Source: an uncultured Gemmatimonadales bacterium (GTDB lineage: Bacteria > Gemmatimonadota > Gemmatimonadetes > Gemmatimonadales > GWC2-71-9). From it: a stretch of DNA of 20,367 nucleotides. Within the stretch, counting starts at the first letter, position 1. The number at the start of each line of letters is the position of its first letter. Positions 2,966 to 19,080 of the stretch are shown in pieces. The position numbers and the translations under genes are program-made. Under the pieces are notes generated by a model that did no database searches, was not told the origin of the DNA, and was given only the letters and a program-made list of their open reading frames with translations. The stretch is taken from NCBI GenBank assembly GCA_963748815.1, contig CAVVKJ010000015.1:1-20367 (forward strand), in the 5' to 3' direction.

Positions 2966-3358
2966 CTACTTCCCTCTCTTCTTTACCGGCGCCTTCTTCC
3001 TGGCAGGCGCTTTCCGCTTCGCGGCCTTCTTCACCGCTTTCTTCTTCGCGGGCGCCTTCTTCCTGGCGGCCTTCTTCGCCGCCTTCTTCTTTGCCGGTGC
3101 CTTCTTCTTGGCGGCCTTCTTCACCGTGTTCTTCTTCACCGTCTTCTTCTTTGCCGGTGCCTTTTTCTTGGCGGGCGCCTTCTTCTTTGCCGGCTTCTTA
3201 GCGGCCTTCTTCTTCGCCGCGGCGGGCTTTCTCGCCGGCGGTGCAGGAGGCGCCGGCGGTGGCGGTGGGGGTGGCGGAGGAGTCGGCACCTTTTGGGGTG
3301 ACATCGGCATGGGGTCCATCCATCCCGCCCCGGACCAGCCCATCTCCAGATCGCTCAT
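2966..3358 (-). CDS. Histone H1-like Lys/Ala-rich DNA-binding protein
   Basis: GGAGG RBS upstream of ATG 3358. Poly-Pro linker followed by many PAKKK/AAKKK repeats. Confidence 0.8.
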   Translation of the reverse strand: MSDLEMGWSGAGWMDPMPMSPQKVPTPPPPPPPPPAPPAPPARKPAAAKKKAAKKPAKKKAPAKKKAPAKKKTVKKNTVKKAAKKKAPAKKKAAKKAARKKAPAKKKAVKKAAKRKAPARKKAPVKKRGK

Positions 3359-7651: not shown

Positions 7652-7718
7652 CGTCACCCCCGCGAACGCGGGGGTCCAGTGAACAGACATCTGGATTCCC
7701 GCTTGCGCGGGAATGACG
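7652..7718. repeat. Inverted pair of CGTC-tagged REP-like palindromes
   Basis: CGTCACCCCCGCGAACGCGGGGGTCCAG (7652-7679) and inverted CTGGATTCCCGCTTGCGCGGGAATGACG (7691-7718) between convergent genes. Confidence 0.85.
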
Positions 7719-7740
7719 AGCTTGGCACCGTCGGTCCCGC

Positions 7741-7796
7741 TGCCCCGCTGCCCCGCTGCCCCGCTGCCCCGCTGCCCCGCTGCCCCGCTGCCCCGC
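7741..7796. repeat. Perfect 8-bp tandem repeat (TGCCCCGC x7)
   Basis: Seven exact copies, ending 3 nt from the CBS gene stop. Confidence 0.95.
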
Positions 7797-7799
7797 TTC

Positions 7800-8234
7800 C
7801 TACCTCACATCAAACATGTAGCTGTTGAGGTACTGGATGGTGGCGGCGTGCTCCGCCACCTGGAAGGCCAGCAGGTCGCCGCTGGTCACGAGCCCCACCA
7901 ATCCCCGCGCGTCGGTGACCGGCAGGTGCCGGATGCGCTTCTTGCTCAGGATGGCGCCGCACTCGTCAATGCTGGTTTCGGGCAGGCAGGTGATGACAGG
8001 CGAGGTCATCACCTCGCGCACCTTCGTTTCCGCCGGACTCCGCCCCGCCGCCACCACCCGCCGCAGGATATCTCGTTCCGTGAAGACGCCCAGCAGGGTG
8101 CCGTCTTCCAGCACGACGAGCCCGCCGATGGTGTGATGGTTCATCACCTGGGCGGCGGCGAGGACGGTGTCGGACGGGGCGATGGAGATGACGTCGCCGC
8201 TCTTGCGAGCAAGCAGGTCGCGGACGGTGGGCAT
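7800..8234 (-). CDS. CBS domain pair protein
   Basis: GVFTERDILRRV, VREVMTSPVIT, IRHLPV, GLVTSGDLL. AGGAG RBS. Confidence 0.93.
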   Translation of the reverse strand: MPTVRDLLARKSGDVISIAPSDTVLAAAQVMNHHTIGGLVVLEDGTLLGVFTERDILRRVVAAGRSPAETKVREVMTSPVITCLPETSIDECGAILSKKRIRHLPVTDARGLVGLVTSGDLLAFQVAEHAATIQYLNSYMFDVR

Positions 8235-8905: not shown

Positions 8906-8932
8906 GTAGGGGTGGGCTCACGCCCACCCCTA
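8906..8932. repeat. GTAG-tagged REP-like palindrome
   Basis: GTAGGGGTGGGC-TCAC-GCCCACCCCTA. Related copies at 10420, 10516 and 13428. Confidence 0.75.
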
Positions 8933-9019
8933 GCGAGACGAACTCGCAAATTTGTGCCGGGCGACGGGCCTTTCCCGGCCAATTGGCCCGGTCAGGTTTC
9001 TGGTTGGCAAATCCTAGGG

Positions 9020-10419: not shown

Positions 10420-10540
10420 GGGGTGGGCGCATGCCCACCCCTGGCGCAACCAGACGCGACTTCGTTGCATCAGGCTGGACGCCGCTCCCACCCACACGAA
10501 ATTGCGTTCCTGTCGATAGGGGTGGCCATACGGCCACCCC
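10420..10540. repeat. Pair of GTAG-family REP-like palindromes
   Basis: GGGGTGGGC-GCAT-GCCCACCCC (10420-10441) and ATAGGGGTGGCC-ATAC-GGCCACCCC (10516-10540). Confidence 0.7.
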
Positions 10541-11827: not shown

Positions 11828-11855
11828 CGTCACCCCGGCGAAGGCCGGGGTCCAG
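11828..11855. repeat. CGTC-tagged REP-like palindrome
   Basis: CGTCACCCCGGCGAAGGCCGGGGTCCAG, same family as 7652. Confidence 0.85.
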
Positions 11856-11886
11856 TTGTTGTCGTTCTTCACGCCTTTCGCGTTTC

Positions 11887-11987: not shown

Positions 11988-13220
11988 ATGCGACAATTGG
12001 CGTGGGGACTCGCGTTGTTCGCTTTGGTGGGTTGCGGGGAGAAGGGCCCCAAGCTGGACGCGCCGGTGGTGACCACGCTCCCGAACGGCGCGGTCGAGGT
12101 CAGGAACAGCGGGCCGAGCGGGTGGGCGGACACCAGTGGCTGGAGGCTGGTCGAGCTTTACCGGGTCGGTGGTGTGGACGCCGAGGGGCTCGGGGCGGAG
12201 GAACTGGTCGATCCGCAGAGCGTGGCGATCGATGCCAGGGGCGGGATCTATGTAGCCGACGAGAAGCCCGCGGTCATCAAGCAGTTCGGCCCCGATGGCG
12301 GTTACATCCGGAGTTTCGGGCGGGAAGGGGGCGGCCCCGGCGAGTTCCAGGTGGCGTTCATCGCCGCGGCGCCGGGGGCGCTCGCGCTGCACGATCCCCG
12401 GTCGAGCCGGACGAGCGTGTTCGATTCGGCCGGCAATTTTCTCAAGAGCTGGCCGTCGAGCTGCTGCTACTGGTCGAACATCATGGTCAGCCGCGACACC
12501 CTGATCTACGTGCCGACCTCCGTGCGGTCGGAAGGGCCGAGCGAGCCGAATGACAACTATTACATCCGCTACCGGCTTGACGGGACGCTGGTCGACACGC
12601 TGAAGATCGCGGGGCCCGCTCGTGCCGATGAAGACAAGTACTGGACGGTTTCCGGGGGGGAGGGGCGCAACAAGATGATGTTCATGACGTCCATCCCCTT
12701 CGCGCCGGAGGTGCGGACTCCGCTCGATCCTGCGGGCGGCGCCATCGTCGCCTGGACGGGGGAGTACCGATTCTGGGCGACCTCGAACGGCCGAGACACG
12801 ACCCAGGTTGTTTCGCTCGCAGCGACGCAGTCGACCCTGAGTGAGGATCGTCGTCTGCATATCCGCGACTCGATGGTCGGCCTGTACGCAAAGCAATTCG
12901 ACAAGAAGGCGGTCGAGGAGGCGTTCAAGGTCTCCGACATCCCGACGGTGGCGCCATATTTCCGTTCGCTCCAGGTCGACGGTCGCCGCAACCGGTGGGT
13001 GCTTCCGGACGACGGCGGAAATCACGCCAACGCGCGCTTTGAGGTGTTCGACTCGACCGGGGCCTATCTGGGCGCGGTGCCGCTGCCGGAGACGTTCGGC
13101 ACGTTCTGGCAGACGGTGTGGGGAGTCGATCGCGTGGCGACGATCGCGGAAGATGCGGATGGGTTGCCGGTGGTGGTGGTGTATGGGATTGAGAAGCGAG
13201 GACAGAGGACAGAGGACTGA
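11988..13220 (+). CDS. 6-bladed beta-propeller (NHL-like) lipoprotein (array member 3)
   Basis: Lipobox LVGC. PQSVAIDARGGIYVAD, FGREGGGPGEF, FEVFDSTGAYLGAVPLP. Confidence 0.88.
   Translation: MRQLAWGLALFALVGCGEKGPKLDAPVVTTLPNGAVEVRNSGPSGWADTSGWRLVELYRVGGVDAEGLGAEELVDPQSVAIDARGGIYVADEKPAVIKQFGPDGGYIRSFGREGGGPGEFQVAFIAAAPGALALHDPRSSRTSVFDSAGNFLKSWPSSCCYWSNIMVSRDTLIYVPTSVRSEGPSEPNDNYYIRYRLDGTLVDTLKIAGPARADEDKYWTVSGGEGRNKMMFMTSIPFAPEVRTPLDPAGGAIVAWTGEYRFWATSNGRDTTQVVSLAATQSTLSEDRRLHIRDSMVGLYAKQFDKKAVEEAFKVSDIPTVAPYFRSLQVDGRRNRWVLPDDGGNHANARFEVFDSTGAYLGAVPLPETFGTFWQTVWGVDRVATIAEDADGLPVVVVYGIEKRGQRTED
13198..13218. repeat. 7-bp tandem repeat GAGGAC(A/T) x3 overlapping the gene end
   Basis: GAGGACA GAGGACA GAGGACT, encoding the terminal RGQRTED. 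Confidence 0.75.
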
Positions 13221-13236
13221 GGGCGATCCCACCATC

Positions 13237-13371
13237 CGTCACCCCGGCCCCCGGCTTTCGCCTGAGCAGGGTCGCCGGGGTCCAGCGTTTGAGCTCGCGG
13301 CTGAAGCCGCGGCTCGGCTGGTGTCGCTAAAGCGACGGGGAGGCAGTCACCCCGGCGAAAGCCGGGGTCCA
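13237..13371. repeat. Two direct CGTC-family REP copies with small hairpins between them
   Basis: CGTCACCCCGGC-(long loop)-GCCGGGGTCCAG at 13237-13285 and GTCACCCCGGCGAAAGCCGGGGTCCA at 13346-13371. Hairpins CGCGGCT-GA-AGCCGCG and GTCGCT-AA-AGCGAC lie between. Confidence 0.8.
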
Positions 13372-13427
13372 TGTTCCGGGCTCTTACGCCGATTCGTCAC
13401 ATTCCGCGTTCGACCGGACGCACCGAG

Positions 13428-13452
13428 GGGGTGGGCATACGCCCACCCCTAT
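13428..13452. repeat. GTAG-family REP-like palindrome
   Basis: GGGGTGGGC-ATAC-GCCCACCCCTAT. Confidence 0.7.
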
Positions 13453-13473
13453 CCGGGAGCGTCCAAGCCGTCC

Positions 13474-13517
13474 CCCCTCTCCCGGAGGGAGAGGGGGATA
13501 AGGGGGTGAGGGGTTAC
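13474..13517 (-). repeat. BoxC-like palindromic repeat, copy A
   Basis: CCCCTCTCCC-GGA-GGGAGAGGGG followed by GATAAGGGGGTGAGGGGTTAC. Confidence 0.9.
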
Positions 13518-13573
13518 GACGGCGGGGCAGGGTGGCGGGGGGCAGGAGTTCGCGGCATTGCGAGGAACCCCAG

Positions 13574-14791
13574 CTACTGAAGCTCCTCCAGCACCGGCAA
13601 CCGCCCCACCACCAGCGCCCCATCCTCATCTTCGGCGATTCCGTACACCCACCGCACACTCCACGCCTTCGGGGTGAAGTTGCTGGGCAGGTGGACGGTC
13701 GCGAGCCGGCGGCCGTCGGTGCCGAAGACATCCCAACGGTAGGTGGCCGGCCTCGCCTCGGCGACCCTTCCCATGACGAAGGGATGGTACTTGTAGGTGG
13801 AGTCCACGACGCGCATCCACAGCCGCCCTCCCGCGTCGAACTGAAGCTCCTCGACCTGATTGCGAGTGTCTCCGTAGTCTTGACCCTCCACGAGGTCGAT
13901 CAAGGGCGGGAAGGGCCCAGAAGGGAATTCACCCTGCCACTTCTCTGGAATGGTCTTGGCATCGGCAGTTACCGGTACCGCCGCTTCGTCAACGGTAATG
14001 ATGGACATCGCACCATTTGAGGCGTTTCGAATCTGAGCAGCAAACGTCACCCCATCCGACGTTGCTACCTGACAGCCGCCATCGCTTGCGACCAGCGCCC
14101 GGACTCCATAGGGACGGCGCGTACCCGATGGCTGTGTCGCCGTCCAGGCGACATCCTCAACCAGGAGCCACGGTACCGGTTTTGTGTTGGGTCGCCACCA
14201 GACGATCGCGACGGTGTCGGGGGGCCCGCCGGGTAAGCGGTACCCGGCCCTCCAGAGCGCGAGTATGTTGCCGTCGCACGAAGCCAGACTCGACGCCATG
14301 GCTTCGTCGTACCCGGTCGGCGCCTCAAGTGTGGTGGTGATGGGGACATGATCAGGCCCAAAACGGGTCAGCCGTGACGCGTTGAAATCCAGAGCTTCGA
14401 CGGTGTCCCCTCGTGCGTGCACACCCAGAATGCGACGAAATTCCCCCGGCCCATCACCCTTCCGGCCGAGAGTTTCTACTTCGCCAGGTGCACCGATTTC
14501 CACGATTTGAGTGCGTTCCCCGATGAGCAACTTGTCACCTGCCGTCGCCACCGCCGTTGATCGCAGGACTCCCTCCCCGGCATAAACGACCTCCAGCGAC
14601 TCGCTCGGGATGGTGCCGAGGTCTCCGAGGACGGAGCCGGATTGGGTGTGGACGAAGGTGGTGTCGCCGGAGGTGGTGATCGAGCCCTGCCAGGTATCGG
14701 AGGTCCCGTTGCCTGCGGAATCGCGACACCCGACGACCAGGCACAGGACCAAGACAGCACATGCGGCAGGCCGACCCCTACGAGAAATCAA
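13574..14791 (-). CDS. 6-bladed beta-propeller lipoprotein (array member 4)
   Basis: TTG 14791 after GGAGG gives signal MISRRGRPAACAVLVLCLVVGC. LGRKGDGPGEFR and WDVFGTDGRRLATVHLP motifs. Confidence 0.8.
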   Translation of the reverse strand: MISRRGRPAACAVLVLCLVVGCRDSAGNGTSDTWQGSITTSGDTTFVHTQSGSVLGDLGTIPSESLEVVYAGEGVLRSTAVATAGDKLLIGERTQIVEIGAPGEVETLGRKGDGPGEFRRILGVHARGDTVEALDFNASRLTRFGPDHVPITTTLEAPTGYDEAMASSLASCDGNILALWRAGYRLPGGPPDTVAIVWWRPNTKPVPWLLVEDVAWTATQPSGTRRPYGVRALVASDGGCQVATSDGVTFAAQIRNASNGAMSIITVDEAAVPVTADAKTIPEKWQGEFPSGPFPPLIDLVEGQDYGDTRNQVEELQFDAGGRLWMRVVDSTYKYHPFVMGRVAEARPATYRWDVFGTDGRRLATVHLPSNFTPKAWSVRWVYGIAEDEDGALVVGRLPVLEELQ

Positions 14792-14816
14792 AGTTGCCTC
14801 CGGATGTCCGCATGGA

Positions 14817-15938
14817 TCAGTTCCCTGGCGAGTCAACTGATCGTGTCTCGAACGTCCTCCACTCACACCTCTCCACATCGATCAGCATCCGTCTGACCCA
14901 CGTCTCCCCAGTGCCATCTGCGCCGATCCGCAGATCGATGCGCACCAGCGTGTCGCCGCGCACCGAGAGTTTTGGCGATCCCTCGGGGTCTTCCCCCAGC
15001 GGTGTGTCCACGCACGCTTCACCGGTGTGAAAGTCCAGAACGGAGAGCCAGCTGGTCGAATGCTCAGTTTGGCCGCTCAACACAAAATCGCTGTGAATCA
15101 CGGCCAAGCGCTCTGCGCCCATCGGGAAAAGCCCGCTCAGGAGCGAGGCCATGCCGATGATTGTCGAGTCACTCATTGGTTTGCTGAATCGCTGGATGAT
15201 GTCCGTAGGCACCGGGCGGCGAGCTACCCACGGCATCGTCACCGCCAGCGTCTCGGCGCCGGAGGTTCTTACGTAGAGCTCGTTGGATGCCATGACGCCT
15301 GTCACAAGCTTGTCGGGGATCGATGCCACGAAGAAATAGGGAAAAAATGTCCGCACACCCGGGGAGTCACGATACGGCGCGGGCAGCGTGCCTCGGCGGA
15401 TTGCCGAGTCCACGCCGGGTAGCAACACCACCTGGCTGGTGTAGTTGACCGGGTCGAACAGCGCGCCCACGAGGGTGTCGCCGTCCCAGGCGATGCTGTA
15501 CGCGAGGCCTCCGACCGGGGCGGAGCGTGTTAGCGCACCGCTGGAGAGATCAAAGAAGTTGACCCGCTGAAGTTGCCAGTCCACCGCCGCGAGCAGGGTA
15601 TCACGGAGCACTGCCATTGCGCCTGGAACCGCGAACTCTCCGGGGCCCCTGCCCTTCCGGCCGATTCGACGACGGAGCGCTCCCGATCGCTCGAACTCAC
15701 TGATTTGTGCGGATGCGAGGTCGGCCACGAGAAGGCCTCCATCCGCAGTCACCTGGATGGCAAGGATGTGGCTGAGGGGAGCCGAGTCGGGCTCCTCCAG
15801 CTTGACCGAATCGAGCAGCGTGACGACTGGGCTGGGGCTGGTCGGGGCCCCCAATTGGCGATCAGTACCGCAGCCGGCGAGCAGCAGGCACACCAGCAAG
15901 CAGGGTCCGAGGACCGGATATCGTCTCATGGTCATCAT
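14817..15938 (-). CDS. 6-bladed beta-propeller lipoprotein (array member 5)
   Basis: Lipobox LAGC. IGRKGRGPGEF. C-terminal ACVD...CEW. Start uncertain (candidates from 15929 to 15947). Confidence 0.82.
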   Translation of the reverse strand: MMTMRRYPVLGPCLLVCLLLAGCGTDRQLGAPTSPSPVVTLLDSVKLEEPDSAPLSHILAIQVTADGGLLVADLASAQISEFERSGALRRRIGRKGRGPGEFAVPGAMAVLRDTLLAAVDWQLQRVNFFDLSSGALTRSAPVGGLAYSIAWDGDTLVGALFDPVNYTSQVVLLPGVDSAIRRGTLPAPYRDSPGVRTFFPYFFVASIPDKLVTGVMASNELYVRTSGAETLAVTMPWVARRPVPTDIIQRFSKPMSDSTIIGMASLLSGLFPMGAERLAVIHSDFVLSGQTEHSTSWLSVLDFHTGEACVDTPLGEDPEGSPKLSVRGDTLVRIDLRIGADGTGETWVRRMLIDVERCEWRTFETRSVDSPGN

Positions 15939-16050
15939 AGTCTGCACCGCGGGATGGGGGGTGCGCTAGAGGGGATATTTGATCGACGAGCGGGTGGTAC
16001 CCCGCCTTGCGTTCAACCCGTCACCCCCGGTCCCCGCTCCCTCCACGCAT

Positions 16051-16094
16051 CTAACCCCTCACCCCCCGGCCCCCTCTCCCTCCGGGAGAGGGGG
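16051..16094 (+). repeat. BoxC-like palindromic repeat, copy B (overlaps the DUF559 3' end)
   Basis: CTAACCCCTCACCCCCCGGCCCCCTCTCCC-TCC-GGGAGAGGGG, inverted relative to copies A, C and D. A degenerate partial copy lies at about 16014-16042. Confidence 0.88.
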
Positions 16095-16470
16095 TGGTGA
16101 AGGGTTGGAGGAGGCTGCGAAATCGTTCGACGTTCACCTCCGCATTCGGGATTCGAAGCACCCGAACACCCAAGGACTCGATCTGCGCGTCGCGTTGGAG
16201 GTCGCGAATTGGATGCCCGTCCTCTTGATGGATGGGGCCATCCAACTCGATTGCCAGGCGCAATTGCGCACAATAGAAGTCCACGATGAATGGTCCTACG
16301 ATTTGCTGACGTCGAAATCGCAGCCCCAACATCCTTCTGCCACGAAGGAGTTCCCATGCCTGCCGCTCGGCAGCGGTTCCCTCACGCCGGAGTCGCCGTG
16401 CCTGATCGAGCAGGAGCGGATTCTGGTGTTGACGGGCGATGACACCCCTGCCTGTCGGAACTCTGGGCAC
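16051..16470 (-). CDS. DUF559 family (Vsr-like PD-(D/E)XK) endonuclease domain protein
   Basis: GTG 16470 after GGAGG. ARRLRREGTAAERQAWELLR, FRRQQIVGPFIVDFYC, LAIELDGPIH, RDLQRD..IESLGVRVLRIPN. Confidence 0.92.
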   Translation of the reverse strand: MPRVPTGRGVIARQHQNPLLLDQARRLRREGTAAERQAWELLRGRRMLGLRFRRQQIVGPFIVDFYCAQLRLAIELDGPIHQEDGHPIRDLQRDAQIESLGVRVLRIPNAEVNVERFRSLLQPFTTPSPGGRGGRGVRG

Positions 16471-16573
16471 ACTCGCCTCCCCCGAAATCTGCCCAAGGTG
16501 GCTATCAATGCGCGGAATGGTGATACCATTCCCCCGCAAGTCAGCACGAGCAATTGCGTTGGCGCTCACCTCT

Positions 16574-16754
16574 CCCCTCTCCCGGAGGGAGAGGGGGGTA
16601 AGGGGGGTGAGGGGTTACGACAGCGGGGCCGCGGGGCAGGGGGCGAAACGGACACCGGTCCCCCCCTTCCCGAAGGGGAAGATTCCGGTAGAATGCTGGA
16701 ATGATCCGGCTCACCCCCTGCTTGGTTGTGGGATTGTTGCTGCTCGGCGCCTGC
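16574..16754 (+). repeat. ~181-bp direct repeat, copy 1: BoxC-like copy C (16574-16618) + promoter + signal-peptide codons
   Basis: Hand alignment to 17827-18006 gives about 15 differences. Confidence 0.93.
16689..16694 (+). promoter_or_regulatory. -10 element of a probable leaderless transcript
   Basis: TAGAAT-GCTGGA-ATG. TTCCCG 16 nt upstream is a weak -35 candidate. Confidence 0.6.
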
Positions 16755-17810
16755 GCCGACGAGCCCCACCAGCCTATTGCGACGGATGGCGCCACGGCCA
16801 CCGGTTCGCTCCAGATCAGTGCGACACCCATTCAGATCCTCGCCCCATCCGACAGTGATGGAGTTCCCCTGTTCGGCAACATTGCCGACGCGACACGCCT
16901 GACATCAGGAATCGTCGTGGTGGTCGATCGGCGCATCGATGCCGTCACGCTCATTGATCCGAGAGGCCAACTCGTTAGTCAAGTTGGACGGAACGGGGAG
17001 GGTCCGGGCGAGTTCCGCTCGCTCGGCGGGATTGGCCAGTGTGCCCCTGACACCTTGTTCGTCTGGGACCGGATGAACGACCGGATGAACATCCTGGGTC
17101 CCGATGGTGCCTTTGTGAACTCCTACCGCCCACCGGGCGATCTGGTGGACCGGTACTGTGCGGGTGCTACCCGGTTCCTGGTATGGACGCGATTCCTGAA
17201 TTTTGGAACCCCGACTGCAGAGTCACCACCGATCCGCGGTATCGCTGTGCTTGTCTCCGCTTGGGGTGATTCAGTGGGTGGGCTGGGAGAAATCCAGGCG
17301 GGCGAGGTGTGGCCGTTGGGTGCGGTCACCCAATTTGCCGTCACCGAGGCTGGGGTCTATTTGGGAACTGCCGACACCGCGGTCGTGTCCCTATACGATA
17401 CGACCGGTCAGAGACTGCGATCGATTGCCGTGGGGGATGCGCACCGGGCGGCCTCGGAGGTGGACTATGACGCGGCCATCACGAGTTTGACCAGTACCGT
17501 ACCGGGTACCGCCGAGGAAGTTGCCAGCATGAAGCAGTTCATGCGCAAGCGCTTTCCGATGCCCACATTCCTGCCGGCGTATCGCGCGATCTTCACCAAT
17601 GGTCGCGGGGGCCTGTTTGTGGTTACCTCACCGCTCGGAGCTGACGCCACCACGATTCGGGTGTTCGATGGTGCCGGCGCTTCGCTCGGCGACATTCTCA
17701 TTCCCGGGGACTTGGAAATATTTGAAATCGGCAGCGACTATCTGCTGGGGATGACGCAAGATGCGGAGGGAGAACAGCAACTGGTGGTGTACTCGCTGAC
17801 GGTTGATTGA
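16701..17810 (+). CDS. 6-bladed beta-propeller lipoprotein (array member 6)
   Basis: Lipobox LGAC. VGRNGEGPGEFR. IRVFDGAGASLGDILIP...IGSDYLLG..QDAEGEQ. Confidence 0.87.
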   Translation: MIRLTPCLVVGLLLLGACADEPHQPIATDGATATGSLQISATPIQILAPSDSDGVPLFGNIADATRLTSGIVVVVDRRIDAVTLIDPRGQLVSQVGRNGEGPGEFRSLGGIGQCAPDTLFVWDRMNDRMNILGPDGAFVNSYRPPGDLVDRYCAGATRFLVWTRFLNFGTPTAESPPIRGIAVLVSAWGDSVGGLGEIQAGEVWPLGAVTQFAVTEAGVYLGTADTAVVSLYDTTGQRLRSIAVGDAHRAASEVDYDAAITSLTSTVPGTAEEVASMKQFMRKRFPMPTFLPAYRAIFTNGRGGLFVVTSPLGADATTIRVFDGAGASLGDILIPGDLEIFEIGSDYLLGMTQDAEGEQQLVVYSLTVD

Positions 17811-17826
17811 CCCCTCACTCTACCCC

Positions 17827-18006
17827 CCCCTCTCCCGGAGGGAGAGGGGGATAAGGGGGTGAGGGGTTACAACAGCGGGGCCGCGGGGCAGGGGGCGAAA
17901 CGGACACCGGTCCCCCCCTTCCCGAACGGGAAGGTTTTCTTAGTATGCTGGAATGACCAGACTCACCCCCTGCTTGGCTGTGGGATTGATGCTGCTCGGC
18001 GCCTGC
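17827..18006 (+). repeat. ~180-bp direct repeat, copy 2: BoxC-like copy D (17827-17870) + promoter + signal-peptide codons
   Basis: Matches 16574-16754 up to the lipobox Cys codon. Confidence 0.93.
17941..17946 (+). promoter_or_regulatory. -10 element of a probable leaderless transcript
   Basis: TAGTAT-GCTGGA-ATG, same position as in copy 1. Confidence 0.6.
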
Positions 18007-19080
18007 ACCGGCAGTGAGCCTGCCGCCGCCTTCAAGTCCCTCGACGTCTCGTCCTCCACCGCCCCTTCCTTCGACCACGCAGAAGTACACCCGATTGCAC
18101 TGAAGGCCGAGCCCTTTGTGGAGTCAGGCCTCTCGAATCCGTCAGCCATTGCCGTGGTGGGCCCGTATGTTGTCGTCGCCGACCAGACCAAATCCGACAG
18201 CATGGTGAAGGTGTATCGGGCTGCCGATGGGTCGCTCGCGTTTGCGACCGGTCGGGATGGGGAGGGGCCCGGGGAGTATCGAACCATCTGGGGGCTGCAA
18301 GCGGTGCCCTGGGGCACCGAGTCGAACCCCACCGTATCGGTCTTTGATGTTCGGCTCCGCCGCCTCACCGCGGAAGACCTGAGTCCTGCCGGCCAGGAAC
18401 TTGAGCCGGCGGAGCGGCCGATCGTGACCCTCCGGCCCGAGGCGACCCCGACTCAGGCGCTCTGGGAAACCGACAGCACCATTCTCGCGCTGGGGTTCTT
18501 CCGAGCGGGCCGGCTCGGCGTGTTCAACAATGCGGGCGAGCAAGTCGGTGTGGTGGGTCCCCTTCCCGTGGACGACCCGACCATTCCCGCTCCCGTCCTC
18601 CAGCACGCCTACCAGAGCTTCCTCGGCCGGAAGCCGGATGGTTCCCTGCTGGTGGTGGCGAACCGCCACGCCGGGCGACTCGAGATCCTCCGCCCCGATG
18701 GGGAGCGTACGACGGTCGTTCGCGGGCCGTACTACTTCGAGCCGCGATTCACCGTGGATCAGGCAAGCGACAGTGCCAGGACGCCGATATTTGCTGGTGG
18801 CAATCACCTGAGGTTCGGATACCAATCCGTTGCGGCCACGGACGCCGAGATATTCGCGCTCTTCTCAGGTCGGGTCCGGAAGGACTTCAGCGGTGAGGCG
18901 ATCTACGGGCGGTTCGTTCACGTCTTTGACTGGTCGGGGAACTTCCTGCGCGCGTACGACTTGGGCCAGGCAGTCTTCCAGATCGACATCGACCCGTCGG
19001 GGCAACGGCTCTATGCGCTGGTGCATGAGCCGGAGGTGGGAGTGGTTGTGTTTAATCTGGATCCCGAGGAAGCCAACTGA
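17953..19080 (+). CDS. TolB-like 6-blade propeller lipoprotein, BF3164-like (array member 7)
   Basis: Lipobox LGAC. GRDGEGPGEYR. C-terminal GY.SVAATD.EIFALFSG and VHVFDWSGNFLRAYDL...IDID...RLYAL. The BF3164 label is from recall. Confidence 0.82.
   Translation: MTRLTPCLAVGLMLLGACTGSEPAAAFKSLDVSSSTAPSFDHAEVHPIALKAEPFVESGLSNPSAIAVVGPYVVVADQTKSDSMVKVYRAADGSLAFATGRDGEGPGEYRTIWGLQAVPWGTESNPTVSVFDVRLRRLTAEDLSPAGQELEPAERPIVTLRPEATPTQALWETDSTILALGFFRAGRLGVFNNAGEQVGVVGPLPVDDPTIPAPVLQHAYQSFLGRKPDGSLLVVANRHAGRLEILRPDGERTTVVRGPYYFEPRFTVDQASDSARTPIFAGGNHLRFGYQSVAATDAEIFALFSGRVRKDFSGEAIYGRFVHVFDWSGNFLRAYDLGQAVFQIDIDPSGQRLYALVHEPEVGVVVFNLDPEEAN

What the first reader, a model, noticed from the sequence alone, without database searches (positions are those of the whole stretch)
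16574..18006. Constant promoter + signal-peptide module fused to two very different propeller domains: candidate leader/cassette-swapping system
Seen: 16574-16754 and 17827-18006 are ~92% identical by hand alignment (about 15 differences in 181 nt). The module contains a palindrome, a TANNNT box 6 nt before ATG and the first 18 codons (MIRLTPCLVVGLLLLGAC / MTRLTPCLAVGLMLLGAC). Similarity fades within a few codons after the lipobox Cys. The mature parts share little beyond GR.GEGPGE(F/Y)R and look like different subfamilies. A simple tandem gene duplication would normally leave the coding body better conserved than the upstream DNA, and here the opposite holds. Inference: mature domains are captured or exchanged behind a reusable expression/export leader. 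Recombination between the two copies would excise or amplify a ~1252-bp unit.
Basis: partly seen in the sequence, partly recalled or inferred. Interest (0 to 1): 0.88.

Follow-up and report, generated by a model that had tools for sequence, protein, structure and literature searches.

The report
Swapped export leaders in lipoprotein array
In a fast-changing cluster of surface-protein genes of an uncultured Gemmatimonadales bacterium, the front end of a gene (promoter region plus export signal) has repeatedly been joined to a different protein body, most likely by ordinary recombination at the short shared lipid-anchor codons rather than by a dedicated swapping machine.

Summary
The repeat is real (166 of 180 bases), and contigs from other studies span both joins. 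Its first ~45 bases are a known dispersed repeat, BoxC/triplex motif. The rest is a putative promoter plus lipoprotein signal peptide ('head A'). The two bodies are distant propeller homologues (16% identity), so this is not a recent duplication. Relatives show true head/body exchange. Gene 1 orthologues carry another head (0 of 13 have A). Gene 2 bodies carry three unrelated heads. A second head (X, window 15870-16050) sits on three different body families in three species. Four of five joins I could place lie at the lipobox codons. The site is hypervariable: empty in 4 of 10 relatives, and different between co-assembled strains, with breakpoints at BoxC copies. Against a dedicated system: head A occurs only at this locus, every full-length body carries its own signal peptide, no recombinase lies near, and three other genera show no such sharing (57 genes). 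Best reading: microhomology recombination plus selection in a BoxC-rich array. The scan noted the DUF559-BoxC pairing and a one-off leader swap earlier on other DNA.

The parts
16574..16754 (+). Head A, copy 1: BoxC repeat (16574-16617), GC-rich spacer, hairpin, putative -10 box (16689-16694), 18-codon lipoprotein signal peptide ending in the lipobox Cys codon (16752-16754)
   Evidence: promoter function is inferred, the sigma-70 scan found no full consensus site
16701..17810 (+). Gene 1: six-bladed NHL-like beta-propeller lipoprotein (DUF5128-like, below cut-off); chimera of head A and a body whose orthologues carry another head
   Evidence: model pLDDT 89.5, best fold matches NHL propellers and Bacteroides BF0058/DUF4221
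17827..18006 (+). Head A, copy 2: BoxC (17825-17869), terminator-like hairpin 17917-17934 with T run, putative -10 box 17941-17946, signal peptide to Cys codon 18004-18006
17953..19080 (+). Gene 2: TolB-like six-bladed propeller lipoprotein (PF15869 above cut-off; some sources call relatives BF3164 family); the body occurs with heads A, B and C
15870..16050 (-). Head X: second shared upstream + signal-peptide module, next to the BoxC copy at 16052-16094; on three body families in three species
14817..15929 (-). Propeller lipoprotein carrying head X (DUF5128 above cut-off)
13574..14878 (-). Propeller lipoprotein (start uncertain, lipobox Cys near 14728); its orthologue in G012 carries head X
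16051..16569 (-). DUF559 (Vsr-like) nuclease gene between inverted BoxC copies (start uncertain; Pfam match 16126-16407)
13472..13543 (+). Third, partial copy of the module start (BoxC plus GC-rich tail); left edge of a 3-kb segment replaced by other genes in haplotig C16
19086..20189 (-). Further propeller lipoprotein, present in this haplotig only
11988..13220 (+). Conserved propeller lipoprotein that anchors the left edge of the variable site (the right edge, an RND-type efflux adaptor-like gene named from recall, lies beyond the window in C5)

Best explanation
This is one allele of a hypervariable chromosomal array of exported six-bladed propeller lipoprotein genes in one Gemmatimonadales genus. 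Genes come and go as blocks bounded by BoxC repeats or gene ends (shown). Heads (upstream DNA plus signal peptide) are joined to new bodies by crossovers in the few bases that all these genes share, the lipobox codons (joins shown; the mechanism is inferred). Such fusions survive because they stay in frame, expressed and lipid-anchored (inferred). For this pair: a crossover put head A, long attached to gene 2, on the gene 1 body. That allele (BoxC-head A-gene 1, as in haplotigs C16 and C5) then came to lie in tandem with BoxC-head A-gene 2 by recombination at the BoxC after gene 1 (order inferred). Housekeeping recombination and strain-to-strain transfer suffice. The proteins are probably variable surface or periplasmic binding proteins under diversifying pressure (weak inference).
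For: Gene 1 relatives at 50% identity or more with a visible lipobox: 0 of 13 carry head A (P0001, the window's own cluster, and truncated P0008 left out). G012 has head A on gene 2 and another head on gene 1. Gene 2 bodies: P0130 (A) vs P0032 (B) heads 6/18, next 13 residues 13/13; P0139 (A) vs P0034 (C) heads 3/18, next 13 residues 12/13; P0130 vs P0139 heads 16/18, next 13 residues 6/13. The body tree rejects an A clade (p-AU 0.0013) and a C clade (0.0004). Head X, 70-72% DNA identity, lies on three body families; gene order fits deletions in one minus-strand run. Unanchored DNA alignments start or stop at the lipobox. Site empty in 4 of 10 relatives, filled differently in 6. C16 matches the window again from exactly 16574 to 17867, both ends in BoxC. 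BoxC: 5 copies in 5.7 kb vs 0.09 expected; the motif is linked to local genome variability in E. coli (PMC4666352, passages). No recombinase nearby.
Against: Direction is not certain: head A is weakly related to the usual gene 1 heads (same 18-codon length and box spacing; z 3.5-4.0, null maximum 2.2 of 57, vs 6.3-11.5 among those heads), so A may first have come from the gene 1 family. One of five joins (G004, head X) is not at the lipobox. Part of the tree conflict comes from crossovers inside bodies (P0139 vs P0034 last segment 95/95, middle 86/95), not new lipobox joins. The AU groups were defined by head type but tested after a first tree had been seen. Only five joins were placed, two from protein sequence alone. 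The C15/C16/C5 relations rest on a long-read assembly without its reads.
Confidence: 0.66

Rival explanations
1. A semi-dedicated capture system: the DUF559 nuclease cuts at BoxC repeats, BoxC-promoter-signal modules act as fixed expression sites, and bodies are swapped in behind them with the lipobox as the second crossover point.
For: Both shared heads (A and X) begin at a BoxC copy. 10 of 10 distinct stand-alone DUF559 genes in the genus have BoxC beside them, 9 of 10 on both sides. DUF559 lies inside the array in G000 and G003. Strain breakpoints fall in BoxC. Head A has joined three different post-Cys sequences.
Against: DUF559 found in only 7 of 17 genus genomes, and not found in G008, G012 or G013 (85-98% complete), which have filled arrays. 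It is missing from haplotig C16. Heads B and C and the usual gene 1 heads show no BoxC directly upstream where DNA was seen (G003, G004, G012, G013). No headless full-length bodies. No activity data. In 57 propeller lipoproteins of three other genera only 3 pairs share a head, and all have homologous bodies (75-92%).
Confidence: 0.14
2. One-off gene conversion: the two genes became neighbours first, and a single tract copied gene 2's upstream region and signal peptide onto gene 1; the other cases are fast signal-peptide evolution.
For: Only two copies of head A per haplotype, adjacent and 92% alike; residual likeness of A to the usual gene 1 head could have seeded conversion.
Against: Fast drift cannot give unrelated heads before identical linkers or one head on three body families. 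C16 and C5 carry head A-gene 1 without an intact gene 2. It may still explain this one pair.
Confidence: 0.17
3. Assembly artefact of a strain-mixed long-read MAG.
For: The assembly holds three versions of the locus; C5 has an indel-ridden remnant of gene 2 (47 gap openings in 499 columns) between duplicated flanks.
Against: The copies differ at 15 sites, both frames are open, and contigs from other studies span the head A-gene 1 join and the gene 1-module 2-gene 2 stretch; P0130 is an independent head A-gene 2.
Confidence: 0.03

Closest known systems
BoxC / intrastrand triplex motif TM (Holder et al. 2015, PMC4666352; abstract and passages read, supplements not seen)
   Same: The palindrome has the same three-part layout as the listed E. 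coli motifs; it is intergenic, dispersed and tied to variable loci.
   Different: Here it heads promoter-plus-signal modules and marks strain breakpoints of a gene array; the paper's main text does not mention DUF559 (0 hits).
Tandem lipoprotein clusters such as S. aureus lpl (PMC4470592, passages read)
   Same: Variable tandem array of lipoprotein genes in an island-like site.
   Different: There the core is highly conserved (92%) and the flanks less so; here bodies are about 16-35% alike and the head is the shared part.
Polymorphic toxin / Rhs cassette displacement (PMC3482391, search listing and start of abstract only; details recalled)
   Same: A constant trafficking N-terminus is joined to alternative C-terminal parts by recombination at a conserved junction.
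   Different: No orphan cassettes, no toxin or immunity families recognised; the constant part is only 18 codons plus upstream DNA.
Mycoplasma vsa/vpma and Borrelia vmp expression-site switching; integrons and rAID arrays (recalled, not read)
   Same: One promoter and signal sequence placed before alternative lipoprotein bodies; repeat-bounded cassettes.
   Different: Those have a linked recombinase or silent cassette library; neither was found here.
REP-RAYT (REPtron) arrangement (recalled; also named in earlier scan notes)
   Same: A nuclease-fold gene between inverted copies of a dispersed palindrome.
   Different: The enzyme is DUF559 (Vsr-like), not an HUH transposase.

Membership tests
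Site-specific leader/expression-site switching (vsa/vpma type) and integron-like arrays | Linked site-specific recombinase | tested here: not met
   PF00589 hits lie on other contigs or about 200 kb away on C5; PF00239, PF02371 and PF00078 not found; PF01797 about 225 kb away; genome 86% complete
Site-specific leader/expression-site switching (vsa/vpma type) and integron-like arrays | Silent bodies without their own promoter and signal | tested here: not met
   Full-length propellers in the arrays all carry their own signal peptide, read (some by eye where the script missed the lipobox); only a short gene 2 fragment in G004
Site-specific leader/expression-site switching (vsa/vpma type) and integron-like arrays | Fixed crossover site | tested here: inconclusive
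   4 of 5 placed joins at the lipobox codons, but the shared bases differ between cases
Site-specific leader/expression-site switching (vsa/vpma type) and integron-like arrays | Switching within a clonal population (circles, alternative joints) | tested here: inconclusive
   None among 15 of 23 joints shown; contigs only, 4 of 24 listed runs laid
BoxC / triplex motif TM | Pyrimidine arm, purine arm and third purine strand with the E. coli sequence pattern | tested here: met
   Window copies compared by eye with Table 1 of PMC4666352
BoxC / triplex motif TM | Triplex formation | not testable with these tools
   Only hairpin folding computed (z -3.3)
Bacterial lipoprotein | N-terminal basic residue, hydrophobic stretch, lipobox Cys | tested here: met
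   Sequence pattern; lipidation itself not tested
TolB-like 6-blade propeller PF15869 (gene 2) | Pfam score above cut-off | tested here: met
   61.3 bits vs 29.2
DUF5128 PF17170 (gene 1) | Pfam score above cut-off | tested here: not met
   15.9 bits vs 22.9; fold is still a six-bladed NHL-like propeller
Polymorphic toxin system | Toxin domain plus cognate immunity gene | tested here: not met
   No such family in Pfam or NCBIfam scans of the array proteins; PADLOC and PHROGs not run

The most novel reading that the evidence does not exclude
BoxC repeats, cut by their partner DUF559 nuclease, together with the lipobox codons form a recombinase-free cassette system in which BoxC-promoter-signal modules serve as expression sites that capture and exchange whole propeller domains, diversifying the cell surface of these bacteria.
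Probability: 0.14. Interest if true: 0.85.

Novelty: new variant of a known kind. Interest (0 to 1): 0.52.

Why it matters
It is a clear natural case of the lipobox codons serving as a recurring crossover point that lets very distant lipoprotein domains (16% identity) trade promoter and export signal, in an array punctuated by BoxC repeats. It offers a testable site for two open points: whether BoxC/triplex motifs and their DUF559 partner drive rearrangement, and what the much-expanded propeller lipoproteins of Gemmatimonadota do (23 to 63 profile matches per genome in three other genera). If only ordinary recombination is at work it is a good but modest example of modular gene evolution. I found no description of this array or of lipobox-junction swapping in five literature searches on it, which cover open-licence papers only.

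Tried and rejected
Pattern scans of JGI metagenomes for head A: 0 matches twice; GTDB scan: only G012. Search of 1.84 billion representatives with the 40-residue leader region: 0 hits, too short to be informative. Whole module in 40 relatives: only G012 matches full length; the 15 other genomes with a match share only the BoxC part. Genome-wide profile search in G000: 22 propeller matches, no other gene with head A. Heads in G154, G066, G059: 57 genes recovered from 30 of 63, 23 of 23 and 30 of 55 profile matches plus a few earlier loci; none shared across body families. Sigma-70 promoter scan: 0 sites. Rfam: none. Single-sequence fold of gene 2 failed (pLDDT 33.7); PDB sequence search of gene 2: none. 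Integron attC reading of the bases after the palindrome rejected: they do not fit the core pattern (recalled), and no integrase is linked. The four different heads on the 13574-14878 family were not counted as swaps, apart from head X, because bodies are only 58-65% alike. Literature on DUF559 with palindromes: nothing relevant in the listings. Regions L018 and L019 held only BoxC copies and no array genes.

Full report
Observation. The two stretches align with 166 identities, 14 mismatches and one gap, 1252 nt apart. Each holds a palindrome, a TANNNT box 6 nt before ATG and 18 codons ending in a lipobox Cys. Identity drops from 17/18 to 5/18 across the Cys codon. Gene 2 is a PF15869 propeller; gene 1 scores below the DUF5128 cut-off but folds as a six-bladed NHL-like propeller. 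The bodies are distant homologues over 329 columns at 16% identity. A sister genome's record title places the genus in Gemmatimonadales.

The palindrome. The first ~45 bases match the BoxC/triplex motif listed for E. coli (PMC4666352, passages). There are 47 copies in the assembly outside the two haplotig contigs, 5 of them in the 5.7-kb array against 0.09 expected. The DUF559 gene at 16051-16569 lies between inverted copies, as do 9 of 10 distinct stand-alone DUF559 genes in the genus; the tenth has one copy (one haplotig duplicate and two weak hits in long frames left out). Earlier scan notes report this pairing in other genomes.

Not an artefact, but strain-variable. The assembly holds three versions of the locus: the window (C15), C5 (98.9% to 17867) and C16. 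C16 is 95% alike up to 13224, then has other propeller genes, then matches again from 16574 to 17867 at 98.5%; both ends lie in BoxC. In C16 and C5 gene 1 is followed by two BoxC copies, not by module 2; C5 also has an indel-ridden remnant of gene 2 between duplicated flanks, which I read as an unpolished read (inference). Contigs from other studies span the head A-gene 1 join without difference and the gene 1-module 2-gene 2 stretch (4 of 24 listed runs laid). Across the genus, 10 of 16 relatives have the left anchor gene; the site is empty in 4 and filled with different propeller sets in 6.

Heads and bodies do not travel together. Of gene 1 relatives at 50% identity or more with a visible lipobox, 0 of 13 carry head A. 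G012 has head A (74% DNA identity) on gene 2 and another head on gene 1. Gene 2 bodies carry heads A, B or C: P0130 (A) and P0032 (B) share 6/18 head residues but 13/13 of the next; P0139 (A) and P0034 (C) share 3/18 and 12/13; the two A proteins share 16/18 and 6/13. The body tree rejects one clade for A (p-AU 0.0013) and for C (0.0004) (G012 left out because of its frameshift; part of this conflict comes from crossovers inside bodies). A second head, X (15870-16050, minus), also begins beside a BoxC copy and sits on three body families in G000, G012 and G004. Its order fits deletions within one minus-strand run of genes (inference). Four of the five joins I could place lie at the lipobox codons; the G004 join does not.

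Direction. Parsimony favours head A moving from gene 2 to gene 1. But A is weakly related to the usual gene 1 heads (z 3.5-4.0, null maximum 2.2 of 57; those heads score 6.3-11.5 with each other), so an older transfer the other way is possible, and residual likeness may have helped the recent one.

Limits on the 'system' reading. Head A occurs only at this locus among 22 propeller matches in G000 and was found at full length in 1 of 40 relatives. Pattern scans of JGI metagenomes gave nothing. Full-length bodies have their own signal peptides. No tyrosine or serine recombinase, IS110, HUH transposase or reverse transcriptase lies near the site (genome 86% complete). DUF559 was not found in three genomes with filled arrays. 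In three other genera, 57 propeller lipoproteins show no head shared across body families. No leader1-body2 joint or 1.25-kb back-joint is among the joints shown, but contigs drop rare forms.

Mechanism. Shown: block gain and loss at BoxC or gene ends, and repeated head/body joins mostly at the lipobox. Inferred: crossovers use the few shared lipobox bases, selection keeps fusions that remain in frame, expressed and anchored, and alleles move between strains by homologous recombination (0.66). A BoxC/DUF559-driven capture system is not excluded (0.14). A single conversion event may explain this pair but not heads B, C and X (0.17). The function of the propellers is unknown; variable binding proteins at the cell envelope is my best guess.

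Comparison and verdict. It works like cassette displacement in polymorphic toxin loci or leader switching in mycoplasma lipoproteins (recalled), but fails their defining tests (linked recombinase, silent cassettes). It differs from S. aureus lpl clusters, where the core is the conserved part (PMC4470592, passages). I found no description. New variant of a known kind; interest 0.52.

Noticed in passing
window 16051-16569; loci L075-L086: Stand-alone DUF559 genes bracketed by inverted BoxC copies whose loop sequences differ between loci (9 of 10 on both sides).
   Followed up: partly
G000 contigs C15, C16, C5:166455-184317; also C4/C5, C10/C14, C10/C18, C19/C2, C19/C3: The assembly holds several strain haplotigs at 90-99% identity; C5:184431-185270 looks like unpolished read sequence.
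   Followed up: partly
window 11988-13220 vs L067:12033-13259 and G001: The anchor gene is only 77% identical between co-assembled strains but 96% identical to another species, G001: allelic replacement at the array edge.
   Followed up: partly
G003 array (L058), G009 array (L064), G013 array (L060), G008 array (L061): Short Cys-rich secreted-looking ORFs and thioredoxin/DsbA-like ORFs lie among the propeller genes (read by eye); may hint at peptide-related function.
   Followed up: no
window 7652-7680, 11828-11856, 13345-13373; 8909-8935, 10420-10446, 13428-13454: Two further families of dispersed short palindromes; both also cluster at the left edge of the variable site.
   Followed up: no
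window 7728-7807: 8-bp tandem repeat, also at many other intergenic sites in the genome; its reverse complement resembles the GC-rich spacer in head A.
   Followed up: no
window 17917-17942: Terminator-like hairpin with T run immediately upstream of the putative -10 box in copy 2; the T run is missing in copy 1.
   Followed up: partly
window 19053, 16028, 13591-13596: Contigs from several runs stop matching at these same places, near gene ends or the start of head X, hinting at further block edges.
   Followed up: no
G154 loci L091 and L094: Two propeller paralogues with 96% identical upstream and leader DNA but 75% identical bodies.
   Followed up: no
G012:C6:493796-494787: The gene 2 orthologue is frameshifted near residue 172 (real or sequencing error).
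   Followed up: no
window 2966-3358: Lys/Ala-rich histone H1-like repeat protein.
   Followed up: no
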